From NCBI RefSeq assembly GCF_003019035.1, contig NZ_CP027447.1: a DNA stretch of 64,000 nt; one strand, given 5' to 3'. A model generated the notes under the pieces. The model was not told the origin of the DNA, ran no database searches, and saw nothing but the letters and a program-made list of their open reading frames with translations. This document shows positions 1-7,684 of this stretch, piece after piece (within the stretch, counting starts at the first letter, position 1; each line of letters begins with the position of its first letter). This DNA comes from Escherichia coli (GTDB lineage Bacteria > Pseudomonadota > Gammaproteobacteria > Enterobacterales > Enterobacteriaceae). The translations under genes and the position numbers were made by a program.

Positions 1-539
1 GTAATCGGAGACTCGGCCATTAAGCGCATCATCTGCGGCCAGTGATGCCAGAGAAAAAACCCCGTCACGCTGCCAACCAGGATGGTTTTCAAAATTGCTT
101 TAAGTAACTCCGCGCCAGTCTGAGCCGAGAACATCCGTTTAATGCCCGGTAGCGGGTTGAGTTTGGAAAACTTCGGCTGCAAGGATTTGCCGCTAAATAC
201 CAGCCCTCCCAGCATGACCGGAGAAATGAGCGCCACCAGTACCACGCCGCTAATCAGTGGCAGCAGCGCCAGCATGGCTTCTCTGATCAGCAGAATAATC
301 TGCCCGAGGATCAGATTCGGGTCATTGATAATACTGTGATCAAAATGCAGCCCAGCGGAGAGCATGCCCGACAATCGACGGGCCAGCGACACACCGCCAA
401 ACCAGATAACACTCACGCCCACTAACAAAATCAGCAGCGAGGTCAGTTCACGGGAACGCGGGATTTGCCCCTCTTCCCGCGCTTTTTCTAGTCGGTGAGG
501 TGTGGGGGCTTCTGTTTTGTCGTCGCTCTCGTCAGACAC
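1..539 (-). CDS. flhB: Flagellar export apparatus protein FlhB, N-terminal part (gene continues beyond window start)
   Basis: Reverse-strand translation from GTG at 539 reads VSDESDDKTEAPTPHRLEKAREEGQIPRSRELTSLL..., recognisable as FlhB N-terminus; not in ORF track because it runs off the window edge. Confidence 0.85.
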   Translation of the reverse strand, partial: MSDESDDKTEAPTPHRLEKAREEGQIPRSRELTSLLILLVGVSVIWFGGVSLARRLSGMLSAGLHFDHSIINDPNLILGQIILLIREAMLALLPLISGVVLVALISPVMLGGLVFSGKSLQPKFSKLNPLPGIKRMFSAQTGAELLKAILKTILVGSVTGFFLWHHWPQMMRLMAESPI

Positions 540-775
540 GTCGCCAATCCTGGAAAGAGTATTAAGCGTAAATGATGCCAGAGCGCAAAGCGTTCAATGG
601 TTTGAGTAAGGGGCAAAACAGGCGGGATTTAGGGCGTTTATGCAAAAAATAGGTTCAGTTGCAGAACGTTTTGCGAACCATTTTCCAGTTCTGAGATTTA
701 GCCATTTAGCCTATAGAATCGCCCACCGCCTCTCTGTTAGTTTGCTAATAATTAAATTATTACAAAGGCGATCAA

Positions 776-2284
776 ATGGAATGGCAACAATTGCTTAACT
801 GCAACCGTCGGAAAGATAATCTAAAAAAAACCAGCATAGAATTTTTACATCCCCTTGCTAGCGGAAGACAAGAGATCGAGCGGGATTACGACCGATTACT
901 TTTTGCTGCGCCAACTCGTCGGCTTGCGGATAAAACACAAGTTTTCCCGTTAGATCAAAATGACAGTATACGGACGAGGCTGACTCATTCTCACGAAGTA
1001 GCAAACTTTGCTCGCGGAATAGGAATGAGACTCGCTTTCGAGATGAAGGAACACATCTTTGGCGAAATACCCACGGGGATTGTCGTTGAACGCGACGTTC
1101 CTGCTCTGTTAGCAGCGATCGGACTGGCACACGATCTCGGTAATCCACCATTTGGGCATCAAGGTGAAGCAGCGATGCGCGCATGGTTTAATAAAAATCT
1201 TCCAGGCCTTCTTGATAAAGAAGTAAACAGCGAAATATATAACGACTTTCTGCAATTTGATGGAAACTCACAAACCCTGCGCCTGGTTACCAAATTACAA
1301 ATTATTAACGATAACTTTGGTCTGAATCTGACCTATGCCACGCTGGCTGCACTGATCAAATATCCCCGAGCTTCATATTCATCGGACAAACATTGGAAAA
1401 AGCACGGTTTTTTCTATTCTGAGCATGAGGTTGTCATGGATGTCTGGCAACAAACGGGCCTTGGCGTACCAGGTAATGATGCCGGTTGCCGCCACCCATT
1501 TACCTGGATAATGGAAGCTTGCGACGATATTGCCTACTCTGTGCTGGACGCAGAAGATACCATCAAGAAAGGATTTGCCTCATACCAGGATTTGCGTGAT
1601 TTTTTGATGTCACAATCCGAGCCGAACGATGTAATTCAACATGTTATTGAAGCTGTAGAGGCCAAAAATGACGCCTGGAAAGAGCAAAGAAATGCACTTT
1701 CACCGGCGGAAATTAATGAACTCAGTATGCAAATGTTCAGAGTTTATGCCACCAGTGCATTGATTAATGCCGTAGTAGAAGCCTTTCGCGAACAATTACC
1801 CACGCTGATGCAGCGTGACTGCCCGTTCAAAGATTTAATCTCGCAAAGCAAAGGTCACGCTCTCTGCACTGCCCTGAAAATGTTCGACCGAACACGAGGC
1901 TACTTTCATCGTTCAGTCTTGCAACTGGAACTTAGGGGATCTAATTACATTACTAACTTGATGGATATGCTCTGGATTGGCATCCATGGACACAAAACAA
2001 AGAAAGAACGAGACGGAGAACGCGAGTCCGCGTCTACAGATAACCTTTTTGTTTCTCGTGAAGAATACCTGTCGGATACTCCCTTTGGTCGCTATGCTTA
2101 CGGGACAATCTCTGAAAATTATCGCCGTGTGTTTGAAGATCCCGCCAATACACTCCCTATTCTTTATAAAGAAGCGCAGTTGCTTACCGACGCAATCTCA
2201 GGCATGACGGATAGTTATTTAATGCGCCTTCACGATGAGCTAAAATCACTGTATGAATGTGGTCTCAAACACCCAACAGCTTGA
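776..2284 (+). CDS. Dgt-family HD-domain deoxynucleoside triphosphate triphosphohydrolase homologue (dGTPase-like), accessory copy
   Basis: 502-aa ORF with AAGG RBS about 9 nt upstream; motifs TRLTHSHEV, LAHDLGNPPFGH, TWIMEACDDIAYSVLDAED and C-terminal ISGMTDSY align with E. coli Dgt motifs as I recall them; local GC about 35-42%. Confidence 0.8.
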   Translation: MEWQQLLNCNRRKDNLKKTSIEFLHPLASGRQEIERDYDRLLFAAPTRRLADKTQVFPLDQNDSIRTRLTHSHEVANFARGIGMRLAFEMKEHIFGEIPTGIVVERDVPALLAAIGLAHDLGNPPFGHQGEAAMRAWFNKNLPGLLDKEVNSEIYNDFLQFDGNSQTLRLVTKLQIINDNFGLNLTYATLAALIKYPRASYSSDKHWKKHGFFYSEHEVVMDVWQQTGLGVPGNDAGCRHPFTWIMEACDDIAYSVLDAEDTIKKGFASYQDLRDFLMSQSEPNDVIQHVIEAVEAKNDAWKEQRNALSPAEINELSMQMFRVYATSALINAVVEAFREQLPTLMQRDCPFKDLISQSKGHALCTALKMFDRTRGYFHRSVLQLELRGSNYITNLMDMLWIGIHGHKTKKERDGERESASTDNLFVSREEYLSDTPFGRYAYGTISENYRRVFEDPANTLPILYKEAQLLTDAISGMTDSYLMRLHDELKSLYECGLKHPTA

Positions 2285-3005
2285 ACAGCGTATCGCCGAT
2301 TTTTTTACGCTTAGTGATGAGCATAAGAAAGCCAGAGTATTACTTGATACTCTGGCCTGTTCCTGTCCGGCCTGGATTTTTGGCGGGATGGTGCGTGACT
2401 TAGGCTTGTTTGGCGTCGAGGGATTCTCTTCAGACCTTGATATCGTCATCGGTCGCTCCCGTGAGGAACTCTTCCGGACATTGGCTGAACTGCCCGTCAA
2501 ACAACTGCGTTTTAATAAGTTCGGTGGGATCCGTTTTCGTTATCACGACTTCGAATTTGATATCTGGAACCTCAATGAGACATGGGCATTTCGGGAAAAA
2601 CTTATATTTTGTGAGGATGAATCAAGTCTGTTAAACACTACGCTGATGAGTTGGGATGCCGTGCTCTATGATCTACGTAGTGAAAAAATTATCAGTAAAG
2701 ATAATTATTTGACCGACTTAAATCGCAGACATCTTGAACTTGTTCTTCATACTAACCCCAATCCAAGCGGTTCGGTAACGAAAATTTTACGCACTATTTT
2801 TACTAAGCAGGTAAAGAGTTTAGGTCCGGAACTCTGTCATTTCTTGCACCATGAACTGACGAAAAAACGTTATGAAGTTTGGCATCATTACGATGTACTG
2901 CACTACCAGTCATCGTCATTTTCTCGTTCACAATTTAATGCGTTGATAAATTTACTGGCGCAACAATCACGCTTCGCTGATCTAAAATTATCAAATTACA
3001 AATAA
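2253..3005 (+). CDS. Pol-beta superfamily nucleotidyltransferase-like protein (tRNA-NT/poly(A) polymerase head-like motif), unknown function
   Basis: 250-aa ORF overlapping the upstream gene by 32 nt; motif WIFGGMVRDLGLFGVEGFSSDLDIVIG resembles the GGxVRD...DxD head motif of CCA-adding enzymes and PcnB; the rest has no recognisable body/tail domain. Confidence 0.65.
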   Translation: MNVVSNTQQLEQRIADFFTLSDEHKKARVLLDTLACSCPAWIFGGMVRDLGLFGVEGFSSDLDIVIGRSREELFRTLAELPVKQLRFNKFGGIRFRYHDFEFDIWNLNETWAFREKLIFCEDESSLLNTTLMSWDAVLYDLRSEKIISKDNYLTDLNRRHLELVLHTNPNPSGSVTKILRTIFTKQVKSLGPELCHFLHHELTKKRYEVWHHYDVLHYQSSSFSRSQFNALINLLAQQSRFADLKLSNYK

Positions 3006-3049
3006 CCATCCTCCACATACTTCCTGAACGATACCCGCCCCCCTGCTAT

Positions 3050-3074
3050 CGGCCTGGCATCATCGCGCAGGCCG
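3050..3074. other. 7-bp inverted repeat hairpin (CGGCCTG-N11-CAGGCCG) between the cassette 3' end and the cheZ stop
   Basis: Perfect inverted repeat read in sequence; no flanking T-run on either strand, so not a canonical intrinsic terminator. Confidence 0.3.
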
Positions 3075-3092
3075 AAGTTAAGGCAATACAAA

Positions 3093-3737
3093 TCAAAATC
3101 CAAGACTATCCAACAAATCGTCCACCTGATCCTGACTGGCTACCACACCGGCTTTGCTGGTATCGACCTGAGGTCCATTAAGCAAACTCTGGTTTTCACG
3201 TTTTGGACGCGACTCCTGTTCCGGGATGTTTTCCAACAGCACCATCAGCAACTGACGTTCGATCTCCTGAATGACATCCATCATCCGCTTAATGACCTGC
3301 CCGGTGAGATCCTGAAAATCCTGCGCCATCATGATTTCCAGCAGTTGCGCGTTAGTAAAGCTGGTATGCACGGGGACATCTACCAGAAATTGCCGCGTAT
3401 CTGTTACCAGTTCTCGGGCGTCGGCAAGGTCGATCGGATCGGCAAACCAGTCATCCCAACGTTGGGTTAACGCTTTTGCTGATTTCTCCATTTGATCCTG
3501 ATGCGGTTGTGACGCCTCAACACTGTTCAGCGCCCGCTCCGCAGCCTGGGCGGTCATCTGCACAACATAGTACAAACGATCGCGCGCATCGGGGATGGCT
3601 TCCGCCGCTTCGGCAATGGCCTGATCCAGCCCCAGCTCCCGCAAACTGTCGCGCAGCATACGCGTCAGGCTGCCGATGCGCGCAATGATATCGCCAGCTG
3701 AATGCTCGTCAGCAGGTTTGATTGATGGTTGCATCAT
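3093..3737 (-). CDS. cheZ: Chemotaxis phosphatase CheZ
   Basis: Translation [24 protein letters not shown]... to ...DDLLDSLGF matches E. coli CheZ; start taken at MMQP inside the longer track ORF. Confidence 0.95.
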
Positions 3738-3747
3738 AGTCGCATCC

Positions 3748-5201
<1,454 letters not shown>

Positions 5202-5203
5202 CG

Positions 5204-6064
5204 TTAATCCTTACTTAGCGCATACACCGTCTGACCACGCAGCGTGAAGCGGCGCTCAAGGTGGCTAAAGTTTTCAGAGTGACCCGCAAACAGCAATCCG
5301 TCGGGTTTAAGGAGCGGAACAAAGCGGCGCAAAATCTCCTGCTGGGTAGTTTGATCGAAGTAGATCATGACGTTACGACAGAAGATCGCATCAAACGGCC
5401 CCGGCACGGTGTACTGTTTCGCCAGTAAATTCAGCGGGGCAAAATCAACATAGTTCGCCAGCTCCTGACGCACGCGTACCAGCCCTTCATGCGGTCCCGT
5501 CCCTCGCATGAAATACCGTTGCAGTTGCTGCGGCGTCAGGTTTTTCAACTCTTCATGGCGATAAATACCGCTTCTGGCTTTTTCCAGCACTTCGGTGTCG
5601 ATATCGCTGGCAAACACTTTCCAGCGTCCGGGCACGGTGCCCAATGTGTCAGCCAGCGTCATCGCAATGCTGTACGGCTCTTCGCCGGTCGAAGCCGCCG
5701 CGCTCCATACGCGATACTCGCCAGAACGGCGACGTGCGTGATCCGCGAGCAGAGGAAAATGATGCGCCTCACGGAAAAATGCCGTCAGATTCGTGGTCAG
5801 CGAATTGATAAACGCCTGCCACTCACCGCTGTGCTGATTAGATTCCAGCAAGTTCAGGTAATGACCGAAATCCGTCAGTCCCAGCGAACGCAAACGACGA
5901 ACCAGTCGGTTGTAAACCATGTCGCGTTTATGGTCGGCCAGGACGATCCCGGCTCGTTGATAGATCAATTGACTTATCCGCCGAAAATGCGCGTCGGAAA
6001 GCGCCAGGCGCTCGGTCATCTGTAACAATAAAGACGTTTGCCCACAGGGCAGAGATGAAGTCAT
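5204..6064 (-). CDS. cheR: Chemotaxis methyltransferase CheR
   Basis: 286-aa ORF matching CheR. Confidence 0.95.
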
Positions 6065-6082
6065 AGCGCCTTCTCAATCACT

Positions 6083-7684
6083 TCAGGATACCACTGGCGC
6101 AATTTGTAACTGCGCCGACTCATGTCGTGCTACTTCATGCTCTTCAAGGGTAAATACCGCCACGCGCGACGAAAGATGGTCGGCCTGATTCGCCAGTTGT
6201 TCTGTTGCCACCGCCGCTTCTTCTACCAGGGAGGCGTTCTGCTGTGTCACCTGATCCATCTGGCTGACAGCCTGTGCAACCTGCTCAATCCCCCGCCGTT
6301 GTTCTTCCGAGGCCGAAGCAATTTCTCCCATAATGTCGTTCACGCGGGTCACCGAACTGACAATATCAGTCATGGTCGCGGCGGCGTTATTCACCAGTTT
6401 CGAACCCTGCTGGACACGATTGACTGACTCTTCGATCAGCCCTTTGATCTCTTTTGCTGCCTGGGCGCTACGGCTGGCAAGATTGCGCACTTCACCTGCC
6501 ACTACCGCAAAACCACGCCCCTGCTCTCCGGCGCGAGCCGCTTCCACTGCCGCATTCAGGGCCAGAATATTGGTCTGGAAAGCAATGCCGTCGATAACGC
6601 TGATAATGTCGCCAATTTTTTGCGAGCTGGTGGCGATCTCCTGCATGGTGTGAGTCATGGTACTGACCTGAACACCGCCCGCCTGTGCCGTTGTCGCGGC
6701 ATTTTTTGCCAGTTCCGACGCCTGGCGCGCGTTATCGGCGTTTTGCCCTACCGTGGCGGTTAATTGCTCCATACTGGCGGCCGTTTGTGCCAGCGATGCC
6801 GCCTGCTGTTCGGTACGACTTGAGAGATCGTTATTGCCTGCGACAATCTCCGCGATACCAATGTGCATCTCCTGGCTTCCCTTACGCACATCACTTACCG
6901 TCCCACGCAAAGCCTGCTGCATGGTCTTCAGACTGGCAAAAATGGCGGTGATCTCATTGCGACCATACACCGCAATCGGACGCGCCAGATTACCCGCAGC
7001 AATGCTGTCAAAATGGCTACCGATAATGGCCAGTGGTTGAACAATCATCTTGCGCGTCCACCACAGCGCACTGCTGATGTAGATCGCCGCAACAATAATC
7101 ATGCTGATAAACACCAGCGCCGAAATCTGATAGTTACGCTGGCTTTGCGCACTGGCAGCTTCCAGCACATGGTTGATCTCCAGCTGCCAGGCCTCAAAGT
7201 TAACGTCAAACGCATTCTGTGATTCCTGCACCGGCGCAGTGAGGAAATCCGAAAGTTGATTACTTTCAAGCCAGGTCGCCTGATGTTCGAGATCGTTGTG
7301 CCAGCGGGCAAAACTTTTCTCCGTCTCTTTTTGCAACGCCCTGACGTGCTCGTTGCCCGCAGTCATCGCCATAAAACTTTTAAACAGCGTGGTGGATTGC
7401 GTCAGACTGGCGCGCGCCGTCGTCATCAACGTTTTAATGTCATCCGCCGGATAGCTAAGCGCCGTCAGAGTGCCCGCTTTGTTCAGCGCGGTACTGGCCT
7501 GTAACATTACCGCCCGAGTTTGCGCTAAAGCCGCACGTTGCTGATTGCTCTGCTCGACCTGATTCAGTCGTTGCACATCGTCGCGAAATGCCCAAAAAGA
7601 CATGCCGTTACTGCCAATCTGCAAGATCCCGCAGAGAATCAAAATTAAAAACAGCGTGGTCGAAATTCGAATACGATTAAACAT
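6083..7684 (-). CDS. tap: Methyl-accepting chemotaxis protein IV (dipeptide/pyrimidine receptor) Tap
   Basis: ORF MFNRIRISTTLFLILILCG... with conserved MCP signalling domain; start at second Met of track ORF. Confidence 0.93.
   Translation of the reverse strand: MFNRIRISTTLFLILILCGILQIGSNGMSFWAFRDDVQRLNQVEQSNQQRAALAQTRAVMLQASTALNKAGTLTALSYPADDIKTLMTTARASLTQSTTLFKSFMAMTAGNEHVRALQKETEKSFARWHNDLEHQATWLESNQLSDFLTAPVQESQNAFDVNFEAWQLEINHVLEAASAQSQRNYQISALVFISMIIVAAIYISSALWWTRKMIVQPLAIIGSHFDSIAAGNLARPIAVYGRNEITAIFASLKTMQQALRGTVSDVRKGSQEMHIGIAEIVAGNNDLSSRTEQQAASLAQTAASMEQLTATVGQNADNARQASELAKNAATTAQAGGVQVSTMTHTMQEIATSSQKIGDIISVIDGIAFQTNILALNAAVEAARAGEQGRGFAVVAGEVRNLASRSAQAAKEIKGLIEESVNRVQQGSKLVNNAAATMTDIVSSVTRVNDIMGEIASASEEQRRGIEQVAQAVSQMDQVTQQNASLVEEAAVATEQLANQADHLSSRVAVFTLEEHEVARHESAQLQIAPVVS

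What the first reader, a model, noticed from the sequence alone, without database searches (positions are those of the whole stretch)
660..775. Putative promoter and tandem 8-mer repeat upstream of the cassette, sharing space with the flhB promoter region
A tandem direct repeat ATTTAGCC-ATTTAGCC (696-711) sits immediately before a -10-like TATAGAAT (712-719), about 60 nt upstream of the HD gene start. This same roughly 235-bp interval must also hold the class 2 promoter of flhBAE on the opposite strand, so the inserted cassette may have rearranged or may share flagellar regulatory DNA.
Basis: inference. Interest (0 to 1): 0.3.

Follow-up and report, generated by a model that had tools for sequence, protein, structure and literature searches.

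The report
Back-to-back flhB and Clover promoters
The 8-base tandem repeat is real, but it is a chance-level, lineage-specific quirk inside the ordinary promoter region of a known phage-defence operon (Clover), which lies back-to-back with an intact flagellar flhB promoter.

Summary
The sequence is as described: ATTTAGCC x2 at 696-711 and TATAGAAT at 712-719. One exact 8+8 tandem per 64 kb is what chance gives (1 seen, 1.1 expected). The repeat is degenerate in one E. coli carrier and absent from orthologous loci.

The "cassette" is a Clover anti-phage operon: cloA dGTPase 776-2284 and cloB nucleotidyltransferase 2253-3005. It is probably not a recent insertion. The same flhB|cloAB|cheZ order occurs in Enterobacter, Cronobacter, Pseudescherichia and others, with divergence like that of the flanking genes. 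About 98% of complete E. coli genomes, K-12 included, carry 89 bp of REP-like DNA instead.

Homology to K-12 ends at 639, one base beyond the outer edge of the flhB FlhDC box (596-638), which is intact. The two promoter regions are adjacent, not shared.

Across 15 Clover loci the conserved plus-strand signal is an extended -10 (TGtTAGTTT, 735-743). No start-site data exist.

Verdict: ordinary, low interest. One side-note: this Clover lineage stays linked to motility loci.

The parts
537..539 (-). flhB start codon (GTG)
   Evidence: Translation VSDESDDKTEAP.... Annotated flhB in the identical record SCU-301.
572..579 (-). GGCATCAT (flhB sense), the likely class 2 -10 region of flhB (hexamer CATCAT, 572-577). 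Predicted start about 26 nt before the GTG.
   Evidence: GGCATnAT is the best-conserved block between the FlhDC box and the start codon in 12 flhB upstream regions. Its role as a -10 is inferred; no start site has been mapped here.
596..638 (-). FlhDC box of the flhB class 2 promoter: AACGCCCTAAATCCCG-N11-CCTTACTCAAACCATT in flhB sense, -99..-57 from the GTG
   Evidence: 21/28 match to the published consensus (PMC9962212), reached by 0 of 500 shuffles. The same position is a top-scoring hit in all 12 sequences (unique best in 11). The K-12 ChIP-seq peak centre lies about 65 bp upstream of flhB (PMC4183435; coordinate conversion from memory).
639..640 (.). Left end of homology with Clover-less E. 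coli (K-12 type)
   Evidence: Alignment to the K-12-like locus: identical through 635, G/T at 636, TTT shared at 637-639, unrelated from 640.
639..682 (.). Second, weaker FlhDC-like match (19/28) directly abutting the real box; probably fortuitous
   Evidence: P about 0.009 in shuffles of 639-775. Drops to 17/28 in TB06052, whose A-run is one base shorter (as in 4 of 7 E. coli alleles), and has no counterpart in other genera.
671..687 (+). Conserved upstream block TTGCGA-N6-TTCCA. It may be the -35 of an upstream promoter (TTGCGA-N16-GAGATT) or a regulator site; unresolved.
   Evidence: TTGCG is conserved in most of the 15 Clover upstream regions, and recognisably in Erwinia (ATGCGA/ATGTGT) and Atlantibacter (TTGTGC). 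Invariant in 7 E. coli alleles. PWM score 5.3-6.6 bits in E. coli.
696..711 (+). Tandem ATTTAGCC ATTTAGCC (the finding)
   Evidence: Exact; chance-level. Within 640-775, three of six substitution sites among E. coli alleles fall at 695, 701 and 707, in or next to the repeat. Not conserved in orthologues.
714..719 (+). Alternatively the -35-position hexamer of the conserved promoter (spacer 18).
   Evidence: PWM 10.2 bits in E. coli, but a top-3 hit at this column in only 4 of 15 orthologues. T.G of this hexamer is kept in most orthologues exactly 17 bp before the conserved -10.
735..743 (+). Extended -10 element TG-t-TAGTTT (hexamer 738-743). Predicted start near 750.
   Evidence: TGnTAnnnT is present in 14 of 15 aligned upstream regions, 29-39 nt before the ATG. 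The 15th, Pseudenterobacter, has TG directly abutting TAGAAT at the same place. It is a top-3 PWM hit in 13 of 15. No conserved RNA structure explains it.
765..768 (+). Shine-Dalgarno AAGG, 7 nt before the ATG
   Evidence: Conserved aGGAt column block.
   Evidence: PDB 9p8s-9p8v E=3e-190, with H119/D120, H128/E131 and R31/R36/R40 aligned. PADLOC dGTPase 9e-71. TIGR01353 2e-84.
2253..3005 (+). cloB: Clover nucleotidyltransferase; overlaps cloA by 32 nt
   Evidence: GGMVRD...D61-L-D63. 35% identity, E=1e-54, to the CloB next to a CloA that matches the solved CloA over its full length. The D61/D63 and D71/D73 mutants are described in PMC12265719.
3050..3074 (.). Stem-loop CGGCCTG-N11-CAGGCCG between convergent cloB and cheZ
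   Evidence: No T-run on either strand.
3080..3081 (.). Right end of Clover-specific DNA. Homology with K-12 resumes at AGGCAATACAAATCA (cheZ stop at 3093-3095).

Best explanation
Window 540-775 is a compact back-to-back promoter region made of two independent halves.

The left 100 bp (540-639) is the complete, intact flhB class 2 promoter. FlhD4C2 binds the box at 596-638 and drives sigma-70 transcription leftwards from a weak -10 near 572-577.

The right half (about 665-775) is the native promoter region of a Clover anti-phage operon (cloA dGTPase, cloB nucleotidyltransferase). Its conserved core is an extended -10 promoter, TGtTAGTTT at 735-743, with TAGAAT at the -35 position and a predicted start near 750. 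A conserved block at 671-687 lies further upstream.

The tandem ATTTAGCC pair lies in the unconstrained stretch between that upstream block and the -35 position. It became an exact repeat only in the E. coli lineage and has no function of its own.

The gene pair is an old resident of the flhB/cheZ slot. Most E. coli have lost it, and K-12 carries 89 bp of REP-like DNA in its place. It is probably not a recent insertion that disturbed flagellar regulation.

What is shown: the sequence facts, the junctions, the position and conservation of the FlhDC box, the Clover homology, the synteny, and the conservation pattern. What is inferred: which hexamers RNA polymerase actually uses, and both start sites.
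For: Repeat
- It is exact but chance-level: 1 observed against 1.12 expected.
- It is degenerate in TB06052, and E. coli polymorphism clusters in it, while 671-687, 712-719 and 733-743 are invariant.
- The two units differ at 3 or more positions in L013 and L014 and are lost further out.

Junctions
- K-12 homology runs through 639 and resumes at 3081.
- 106-107 of 5426 complete E. coli genomes carry the pair. All copies are at this locus and none is on a plasmid.

FlhDC box
- The published consensus is in PMC9962212.
- The best match is 596-638 (21/28), reached by 0 of 500 shuffles. The same place is a top-scoring hit in all 12 sequences from several genera (unique best in 11).
- The ChIP-seq peak in K-12 lies at flhB.

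Clover identity.

Old residency
- The flhB|cloAB|cheZ order occurs in Enterobacter cancerogenus, E. hormaechei, E. kobei, Pseudescherichia, Cronobacter dublinensis, Pseudenterobacter timonensis and unnamed assemblies.
- CloA identity is 69-81% against 69-87% for the FlhB N-terminus.
- Within E. coli the module is 98.3-98.4% identical and the flanks 98.5-98.7%.

Promoter
- TGnTAnnnT is present in 14 of 15 upstream regions and in a variant form in the 15th, 29-39 nt before the ATG. This includes loci that are not next to flhB (Erwinia, Atlantibacter island).
- No conserved RNA structure, no Rfam hit and no sigma-28 promoter explain it.
Against: - No transcription start data exist for any Clover-carrying strain.
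- The hexamer TAGTTT is a poor match to TATAAT (3/6).
- The function of the 671-687 block is unexplained.
- The flhB -10 and start site are inferred from conservation only. The footprinting papers (Liu & Matsumura 1994; Lee et al. 2011) were not available to me.
- Ancient residency against repeated recombinational transfer through the conserved flanks cannot be strictly separated with these data.
Confidence: 0.7

Rival explanations
1. One reading: CTGAGA(691-696)-N17-TAGAAT(714-719) is the working cloA promoter in E. coli (start about 726). The tandem 8-mer, which fills its spacer, is an operator or otherwise tunes it.
For: This is the best sigma-70 match in the interval by two scans (9/12; 10.2 bits). 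TAGAAT is invariant in 7 E. coli alleles and present in L014.
Against: - It is a top-3 hit at that column in only 4 of 15 orthologues.
- The -35 (CTGAGA/CTGATA) is polymorphic and not conserved.
- The repeat is chance-level, mutated twice in TB06052, and not conserved.
- The operon encodes no recognisable DNA-binding protein.
Confidence: 0.2
2. An upstream promoter, TTGCGA(671-676)-N16-GAGATT(693-698; GATATT in most carriers), fires from about 705, inside the repeat. It gives a leader of about 70 nt, alone or in tandem with the extended -10 promoter.
For: TTGCG(A/T) is conserved in most of the 15 orthologues and is followed 15-18 bp later by an A/T-rich hexamer in about 12 of them (TATAAT in E. 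kobei, TAAAAT in E. hormaechei).
Against: - Scores are modest (5.3-6.6 bits in E. coli).
- The window's private T695G change weakens its -10.
- The conserved TTCCA inside the would-be spacer is not explained by a promoter.
- The leader shows no conserved structure.
Confidence: 0.15
3. Shared flagellar control: FlhD4C2 also activates cloAB. It would act through the second FlhDC-like box at 639-682 or through the flhB box working bidirectionally, as at flgA/flgB.
For: There is a 19/28 match abutting the true box, P about 0.009 in shuffles. The flhB-cloA spacer length is similar (222-252 bp) in 9 of 10 flhB-adjacent loci. This Clover lineage stays near motility genes even in Erwinia.
Against: - The second box is not conserved outside E. 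coli, and an A-run indel alters it in 4 of 7 E. coli alleles.
- The conserved G and C of TTGCG fall on consensus mismatches.
- The true box is centred about 133 bp from the predicted start at 750. At flhB the equivalent distance is about 50 bp.
- The same cloA promoter motifs occur where there is no flhB or FlhDC box nearby (Erwinia, selC island).
Confidence: 0.05

Closest known systems
Clover anti-phage system (CloA dGTPase + CloB nucleotidyltransferase making p3diT; Salmonella enterica SA20044414 and E. coli H5; bioRxiv 2025, PMC12265719)
   Same: Two overlapping genes in the order cloA-cloB. CloA matches the solved CloA octamer chains at E=3e-190, with the HD, H/E and p3diT-pocket arginines aligned. 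CloB has the GGxxRD...DxD nucleotidyltransferase motif, with D61/D63 aligned to D71/D73.
   Different: CloA is 502 aa rather than 471 aa, and CloB is only 35% identical to the island-borne type. This copy sits between flhB and cheZ, not in a defence island. The paper used pBAD expression and does not mention native promoters or flagellar neighbours. Defence activity of this copy is untested.
E. coli K-12 flhB class 2 promoter and flhB-cheZ spacer
   Same: From the flhB start codon to 100 bp upstream the two differ at only two positions (G/A at 570, G/T at 636), and this stretch includes the FlhDC box (20/28 in K-12, 21/28 here).
   Different: Beyond the box, K-12 has 89 bp of REP-like DNA that recurs elsewhere in the chromosome and then cheZ. 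Here 2441 bp of Clover DNA lie in between.
Divergent flagellar class 2 regions flgAMN/flgBCDEFGHIJ and fliE/fliFGHIJK
   Same: Two operons face away from each other with an FlhDC site in the short spacer (one ChIP peak each; PMC4183435).
   Different: Here the second operon is not flagellar. Its conserved promoter elements travel with it to non-flagellar contexts, and the box is too far from its predicted start. FlhDC dependence is unsupported.
Extended -10 (TGn) sigma-70 promoters
   Same: TG one base upstream of a TAnnnT hexamer, with a weak -35. The TG and the T-12, A-11 and T-7 positions are the ones conserved.
   Different: Identified by conservation only. No start site or mutational evidence.

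Membership tests
Regulatory tandem repeat (operator or iteron-like direct repeat) | Repeat is more frequent or longer than chance allows | tested here: not met
   One exact period-8 tandem in 64 kb against 1.12 expected.
Regulatory tandem repeat (operator or iteron-like direct repeat) | Both units conserved among carriers and orthologues | tested here: not met
   TB06052 carries two substitutions in the repeat. L013, L014 and L011 units differ at 3 or more positions. No repeat is recognisable in the more distant orthologues.
Regulatory tandem repeat (operator or iteron-like direct repeat) | A cognate DNA-binding protein | tested here: not met
   Neither cassette protein has a DNA-binding domain hit in Pfam, NCBIfam or PADLOC. 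Binding by a host factor is not testable here.
   CTGAGA-17-TAGAAT, 9/12; 10.2 bits.
   A top-3 PWM hit at that column in 4 of 15.
   No start-site data found for any carrier strain.
Extended -10 sigma-70 promoter (735-743) | TG at -15/-14 plus T-12, A-11 and T-7 | tested here: met
   TGtTAGTTT in the window. TGnTAnnnT in 14 of 15 orthologues, with a variant (TG abutting TAGAAT) in the 15th.
Extended -10 sigma-70 promoter (735-743) | Positional conservation relative to the gene start, independent of the alignment | tested here: met
   The hexamer ends 29-39 nt before the ATG in all.
Extended -10 sigma-70 promoter (735-743) | Mapped start about 7 nt downstream and loss on TG or A-11 mutation | not testable with these tools
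   Needs an experiment.
Flagellar class 2 (FlhDC-dependent) promoter, flhB side | FlhDC box matching AAYGSSNNAAATAGCG-N10-12-CGCTATTTNNSSCRTT upstream of a sigma-70 -10 | tested here: met
   596-638, 21/28, reached by 0 of 500 shuffles, conserved in position across genera.
Flagellar class 2 (FlhDC-dependent) promoter, flhB side | FlhDC occupancy and flhDC dependence in vivo | not tested
   Shown for K-12 in PMC4183435: a ChIP peak, and flhBAE expression of 137 falling to 0 in the flhD deletion mutant. Not tested in a carrier.
Flagellar class 2 promoter, cloA side | Conserved FlhDC box at class 2 distance from the plus-strand start | tested here: not met
   The second box (639-682, 19/28) is not conserved. 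The true box is centred about 133 bp from the predicted start.
Flagellar class 3 (sigma-28) promoter | TAAAGTTT-N11-GCCGATAA | tested here: not met
   Best match 10/16, below the shuffle mean of 10.45. The tar promoter in the same window scores 16/16.
Clover defence system | CloA: dGTPase-family HD enzyme with the HD and H/E residues and the p3diT-pocket arginines | tested here: met
   E=3e-190 to 9p8s. H119/D120, H128/E131 and R31/R36/R40 align to H117/D118, H126/E129 and R29/R34/R38.
Clover defence system | CloB: adjacent nucleotidyltransferase with a catalytic DxD | tested here: met
   35% identity, E=1e-54, to the CloB of the solved-type operon. D61xD63 aligns to D71xD73.
Clover defence system | Phage defence, dTTP activation and p3diT synthesis | not testable with these tools
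   Biochemistry and plaque assays are needed.
Recent mobile-element insertion (cassette) | Mobility genes, target-site duplication, occurrence at several sites or on plasmids, foreign flanks | tested here: not met
   In the window 540-3092 the only ORFs matching protein families are cloA and cloB. There is one site in all 107 carriers and none on plasmids. The flanks are about 99% K-12-like up to the junctions. The same slot is occupied in other genera.

The most novel reading that the evidence does not exclude
This lineage of Clover is a long-term resident of flagellar and chemotaxis gene clusters across Enterobacterales: between flhB and cheZ in Escherichia, Enterobacter, Cronobacter and Pseudescherichia, and next to an MCP, a GGDEF protein and a flagellin gene in Erwinia. 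Its promoter abuts the flhB FlhDC box, and E. coli has a second FlhDC-like match at 639-682. If this linkage is functional, expression of a dGTP-depleting defence would be coupled to the motile state, for example against flagellum-dependent phages. That would be a new regulatory link between motility and immunity.
Probability: 0.08. Interest if true: 0.6.

Novelty: new member of a known kind. Interest (0 to 1): 0.2.

Why it matters
As posed, it matters little. The repeat is noise, and the flhB promoter is untouched by its neighbour.

Three by-products are useful:
- The exact boundary between Clover DNA and flagellar DNA, which lies at the outer edge of the FlhDC box.
- A first description of the conserved native promoter architecture of Clover operons, which have so far been studied only from pBAD.
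- The recognition that K-12-type E. coli is probably the loss state of an old flhB|cloAB|cheZ arrangement, rather than carriers being an insertion state.

Native regulation matters for Clover because CloA alone is toxic (PMC12265719). The persistent flagellar neighbourhood gives a cheap, testable hypothesis about when the system is expressed.

Tried and rejected
- **Sigma-28 promoter in 540-775.** Best match 10/16, below shuffles, while the tar control scores 16/16. Rejected.
- **Conserved RNA structure or leader.** RNAalifold predicts 0 pairs on 15 orthologues and Rfam finds nothing relevant. Rejected.
- **Small ORF 640-798 (52 aa).** Broken by a 1-nt A-run deletion in 4 of 7 E. coli alleles. 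Rejected.
- **Repeat as an 8-bp target-site-duplication footprint.** Both units already exist in diverged form in L013 and L014, so the two-unit layout predates the exact identity. Rejected.
- **Second FlhDC box at 639-682.** Statistically unusual in E. coli (P about 0.009) but not conserved. Kept only as a low-probability rival.
- **CRP-like reading of TGCGA-N6-TTCCA.** The centre is about -70.5 from the predicted start, but core matches are only 5-8 of 10 by my manual count on the alignment. Left unresolved.
- **Plasmid origin.** No match in PLSDB.
- **Literature for the flhB footprint or start site.** Lee et al. 2011 and Thomason et al. 2015 are not held. A full-text search for flhB promoter sequence strings found nothing. 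The RNase E paper gives no coordinates.
- **Alignment with Erwinia upstream DNA.** It first looked unrelated, but the 15-way local alignment recovered the shared blocks.

Full report
**1. The observation**

The window reads ...ttctgagATTTAGCCATTTAGCCTATAGAATcgcc... The two 8-mers are at 696-711 and TATAGAAT is at 712-719. The next long ORF starts at ATG 776. flhB runs leftwards from a GTG at 539-537, so the interval is 236 bp.

The repeat is the only exact period-8 tandem of at least 16 nt in the window. First-order Markov simulations of the window yield 1.12 such repeats on average. It is therefore what chance delivers once per window.

The consensus scan returns CTGAGA-17-TAGAAT (9/12). Promoter-like hits in 400-3400 are not enriched over shuffles: 3 found against 4.6 expected.

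**2. Junctions with K-12**

A megablast of 440-3200 against 5426 complete E. coli genomes gives full-length matches in 106. The remaining matches cover only about 12% of the query, and the rows listed show the two flanks joined by a short spacer.

Alignment with a K-12-type locus shows identity from flhB through 635, G/T at 636, shared TTT at 637-639, and then unrelated sequence. Homology resumes at 3081 (AGGCAATACAAATCA), 12 nt before the cheZ stop.

So 2441 bp here (640-3080) correspond to 89 bp in K-12. That K-12 segment looks like a REP element (my reading of the sequence), and parts of it recur elsewhere in the chromosome, at a median of two places per genome. The repeat at 696-711 has no counterpart in K-12.

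**3. Where the flhB class 2 promoter is**

The published FlhDC consensus is AAYGSSNNAAATAGCG-N10-12-CGCTATTTNNSSCRTT (PMC9962212).

- Scanning 540-775 on both strands gives one outstanding match at 596-638. In flhB sense it reads AACGCCCTAAATCCCG-cctgttttgcc-CCTTACTCAAACCATT, at -99..-57 from the GTG.
- The match scores 21/28, and none of 500 shuffles reaches that.
- The same position is a top-scoring hit in all 12 flhB upstream regions examined (unique best in 11). These comprise three E. coli alleles, Enterobacter, Cronobacter, Pseudescherichia, Pseudenterobacter and unnamed assemblies. The columns reported as most conserved (A1, A2, G4, AAAT) are the ones kept.
- ChIP-seq in K-12 places the FlhD/FlhC peak centre at 1964280 in NC_000913.2 (PMC4183435). 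The flhB start is at 1966191 in version 3. Using a version offset of 1976, which I recall rather than computed, the peak lies about 65 bp upstream of the GTG, or about window 604. That is 13 bp from the box centre.
- Downstream of the box, the best-conserved block is GGCATnAT (window 572-579, minus strand). I take this to be the class 2 -10, which gives a start about 26 nt before the GTG. This step is inferred.

The key point is that homology with Clover-less E. coli ends at 639, one base beyond A1 of the box. The flagellar promoter is complete. It is one consensus match better than in K-12 (AACGCC against AAAGCC).

**4. What the cassette is**

- The 502-aa HD protein hits the PADLOC dGTPase model (9e-71) and TIGR01353 (2e-84).
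- It matches PDB 9p8s-9p8v, each with eight 'dNTP triphosphohydrolase' chains, at E=3e-190.
- The 250-aa partner has no Pfam, PADLOC or NCBIfam hit. It carries GGMVRD...D61-L-D63. It belongs to a small Enterobacterales family that some sources label nucleotidyltransferase or poly(A)-polymerase head domain.
- A 2025 preprint describes exactly this pair as the Clover defence system. CloA is a dTTP-activated dGTPase that forms an octamer. CloB makes the inhibitory signal p3diT, and CloA alone is toxic (PMC12265719).
- The residues named there (H117/D118, H126/E129, R29/R34/R38; CloB D61/D63 or D71/D73) align with H119/D120, H128/E131, R31/R36/R40 and D61/D63 here.
- An island-borne Clover in eight other E. 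coli genomes has a CloA that matches 9p8s over its full length (E=2.9e-276). Its CloB is 35% identical to ours, E=1e-54.
- The preprint does not mention native promoters or flagellar neighbours.

**5. Probably not a recent insertion**

Looking up the contigs that encode CloB relatives shows the same flhA-flhB | cloA-cloB | cheZ-cheY-cheB-cheR order in:

- Enterobacter cancerogenus, E. hormaechei (where cloA is split by an IS) and E. kobei;
- Pseudescherichia and Cronobacter dublinensis;
- Pseudenterobacter timonensis (where cloA is split);
- several unnamed assemblies.

One locus has AraC | cloAB | cheZ.

CloA identity to the window protein is 69-81% in these loci, similar to the FlhB N-terminus at 69-87%. 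CloB is faster-evolving at 44-71%.

Within E. coli, the window and TB06052 differ by 1.6-1.7% in cloA and cloB and by 1.3-1.5% in the flhB and cheZ flanks.

All 107 E. coli carriers hold the pair at this one site, and none is on a plasmid.

The simplest reading is an old resident of this slot that most E. coli have lost. Repeated transfer by recombination through the conserved flanks is not strictly excluded.

**6. The plus-strand promoter**

I aligned 125 nt upstream of cloA from 15 loci. The set included Erwinia (no flhB neighbour) and the Atlantibacter selC-type island. Three conserved features stand out.

- **An extended -10.** TtTGnTAGnnT corresponds to window 733-743. TGnTAnnnT occurs in 14 of 15 loci, ending 29-39 nt before the ATG. 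Pseudenterobacter has TG directly abutting TAGAAT at the same place. These are exactly the informative positions of an extended -10 promoter: TG at -15/-14, plus T-12, A-11 and T-7.
- **A -35-position hexamer.** A T.G-type hexamer lies 17 bp upstream of that hexamer (18 bp in E. coli).
- **An upstream block.** TTGCG(A/T)-N6/7-TTCCA corresponds to window 671-687.

A simple PWM scan (consensus frequencies recalled from the literature, so indicative only) gave these results:

| Candidate | Score in E. coli | Top-3 hit at that column |
|---|---|---|
| Extended -10 (735-743) | 5.7 bits | 13 of 15 |
| TTGCGA-N16-GAGATT/GATATT | 5.3-6.6 bits | recurring at about 12 of 15 |

RNAalifold finds no conserved structure in this region. 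Rfam finds nothing. There is no sigma-28 promoter: the best match is 10/16, against 16/16 for tar in the same window.

I therefore place the conserved promoter at 735-743, with a predicted start near 750 and a Shine-Dalgarno AAGG at 765-768. Only start-site mapping can decide.

**7. The repeat itself**

Relative to the conserved promoter, the repeat lies at about -54..-39, between the conserved upstream block and the -35 position.

- Among seven E. coli alleles, the conserved blocks at 671-687, 712-719 and 733-743 are invariant. Within 640-775, three of the six substitution sites fall at 695, 701 and 707, in or next to the repeat.
- TB06052 reads ATTTAACC ATTAAGCC.
- In the nearest outgroups the two units are already present but different: L013 ATTTAGCC/ATCAGGCC, L014 ATATAGCC/ATTTGCCC, L011 CTTAAGCC/GACTGACC. 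Further out they dissolve.

The exact identity is thus a recent, E. coli-specific coincidence or micro-conversion in unconstrained DNA. It is not an operator, and it is not a transposon footprint.

**8. Is flagellar regulatory DNA shared?**

The true FlhDC box is centred at about 617. That is about 50 bp from the inferred flhB start but about 133 bp from the predicted cloA start.

A second FlhDC-like match (639-682, 19/28) directly abuts the box and is unusual by shuffling (P about 0.009). It has several weaknesses:

- it drops to 17/28 in TB06052, whose A-run is one base shorter, a state shared by 4 of 7 E. coli alleles;
- it is absent from other genera;
- the conserved G and C of TTGCG fall on consensus mismatches.

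The cloA promoter motifs also occur where no flhB is nearby. I therefore rate FlhDC control of cloAB as unlikely (about 5%).

It remains curious that this Clover lineage stays beside motility genes even in Erwinia, with a Tar-like MCP and a GAF-GGDEF protein upstream and a flagellin gene downstream. The flhB-cloA spacer is also kept at 222-252 bp in nine of ten flhB-adjacent loci.

**9. Verdict**

What is there is an ordinary back-to-back promoter region joining a textbook class 2 flagellar promoter and the native promoter of a recently described defence operon. Interest is low (0.2).

The most novel reading still open is functional coupling of Clover expression to motility. I give it about 8%.

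Noticed in passing
window 776-3005; loci L011, L014, L016, L018, L019, L020, L022, L023, L024: The cassette is a Clover (cloA/cloB) defence operon. It occupies the same flhB|cloAB|cheZ slot in Enterobacter, Cronobacter, Pseudescherichia, Pseudenterobacter and unnamed assemblies, so K-12-type E. coli looks like the loss state.
   Followed up: yes
L008 40-2925; L010 2085-3107 and 6023-7933: In Erwinia the same Clover lineage is not next to flhB but is still flanked by motility-related genes: a Tar-like MCP and a GAF-GGDEF cyclase upstream, and a flagellin gene downstream in E. persicina.
   Followed up: partly
L025 (E. coli EcPF16) 4420-6619; L021 (Atlantibacter): A second, island-borne Clover type occurs in 8 E. 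coli genomes; in EcPF16 it lies at tRNA-Sec. Its CloA is 471 aa and matches PDB 9p8s over its full length (E=2.9e-276). Its neighbours are an integrase, QueC, Ogg and Dam-like genes. Its upstream DNA also carries a TGnTAATAT extended -10.
   Followed up: partly
window 671-687: A conserved block TTGCGA-N6-TTCCA lies upstream of cloA, conserved in most of the 15 orthologues. It is either a -35 of an upstream promoter or a regulator site. The CRP-like half-site spacing is centred about -70.5 from the predicted start, but it is a weak match.
   Followed up: partly
window 639-682: A second FlhDC-consensus-like match (19/28, P about 0.009 by shuffling) directly abuts the real flhB box. It is not conserved in other genera, and an A-run indel alters it in 4 of 7 E. 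coli alleles.
   Followed up: yes
window 621-636 (minus strand): The site proposed in PMC8092317 for EsrF sRNA pairing with the 'flhB 5' UTR' (AGCCCUAAAUCCCGCC) coincides with the distal half of the FlhDC box. It would lie upstream of a class 2 start about 26 nt before the GTG. In Clover carriers, any read-through transcript from cheZ would have to cross 2.4 kb antisense to cloBA.
   Followed up: no
L018 1365-4038; L022 1606-3050; protein P0010: There are signs of decay of the flhB-slot Clover. cloA is interrupted by an IS (rve transposase) in Enterobacter hormaechei and split into 167 + 314 aa in Pseudenterobacter timonensis. Shigella flexneri has a partial CloB.
   Followed up: no
window 3050-3074: The stem-loop CGGCCTG-N11-CAGGCCG lies between the convergent cloB and cheZ genes. 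It has no T-run on either strand and may be a bidirectional barrier or stabiliser, standing where K-12 has its REP-like element.
   Followed up: no
window 695: G at 695 (TGAGATT) appears private to this strain: the six other E. coli alleles aligned have T (TGATATT), and only SCU-301 matches 640-800 at 100%. The change weakens the GATATT -10-like hexamer of the putative upstream promoter.
   Followed up: partly
window 640-798: A 52-aa ORF on the plus strand overlaps the promoter region. It is frameshifted by the A-run length polymorphism in 4 of 7 E. coli alleles, so it is not a gene.
   Followed up: yes
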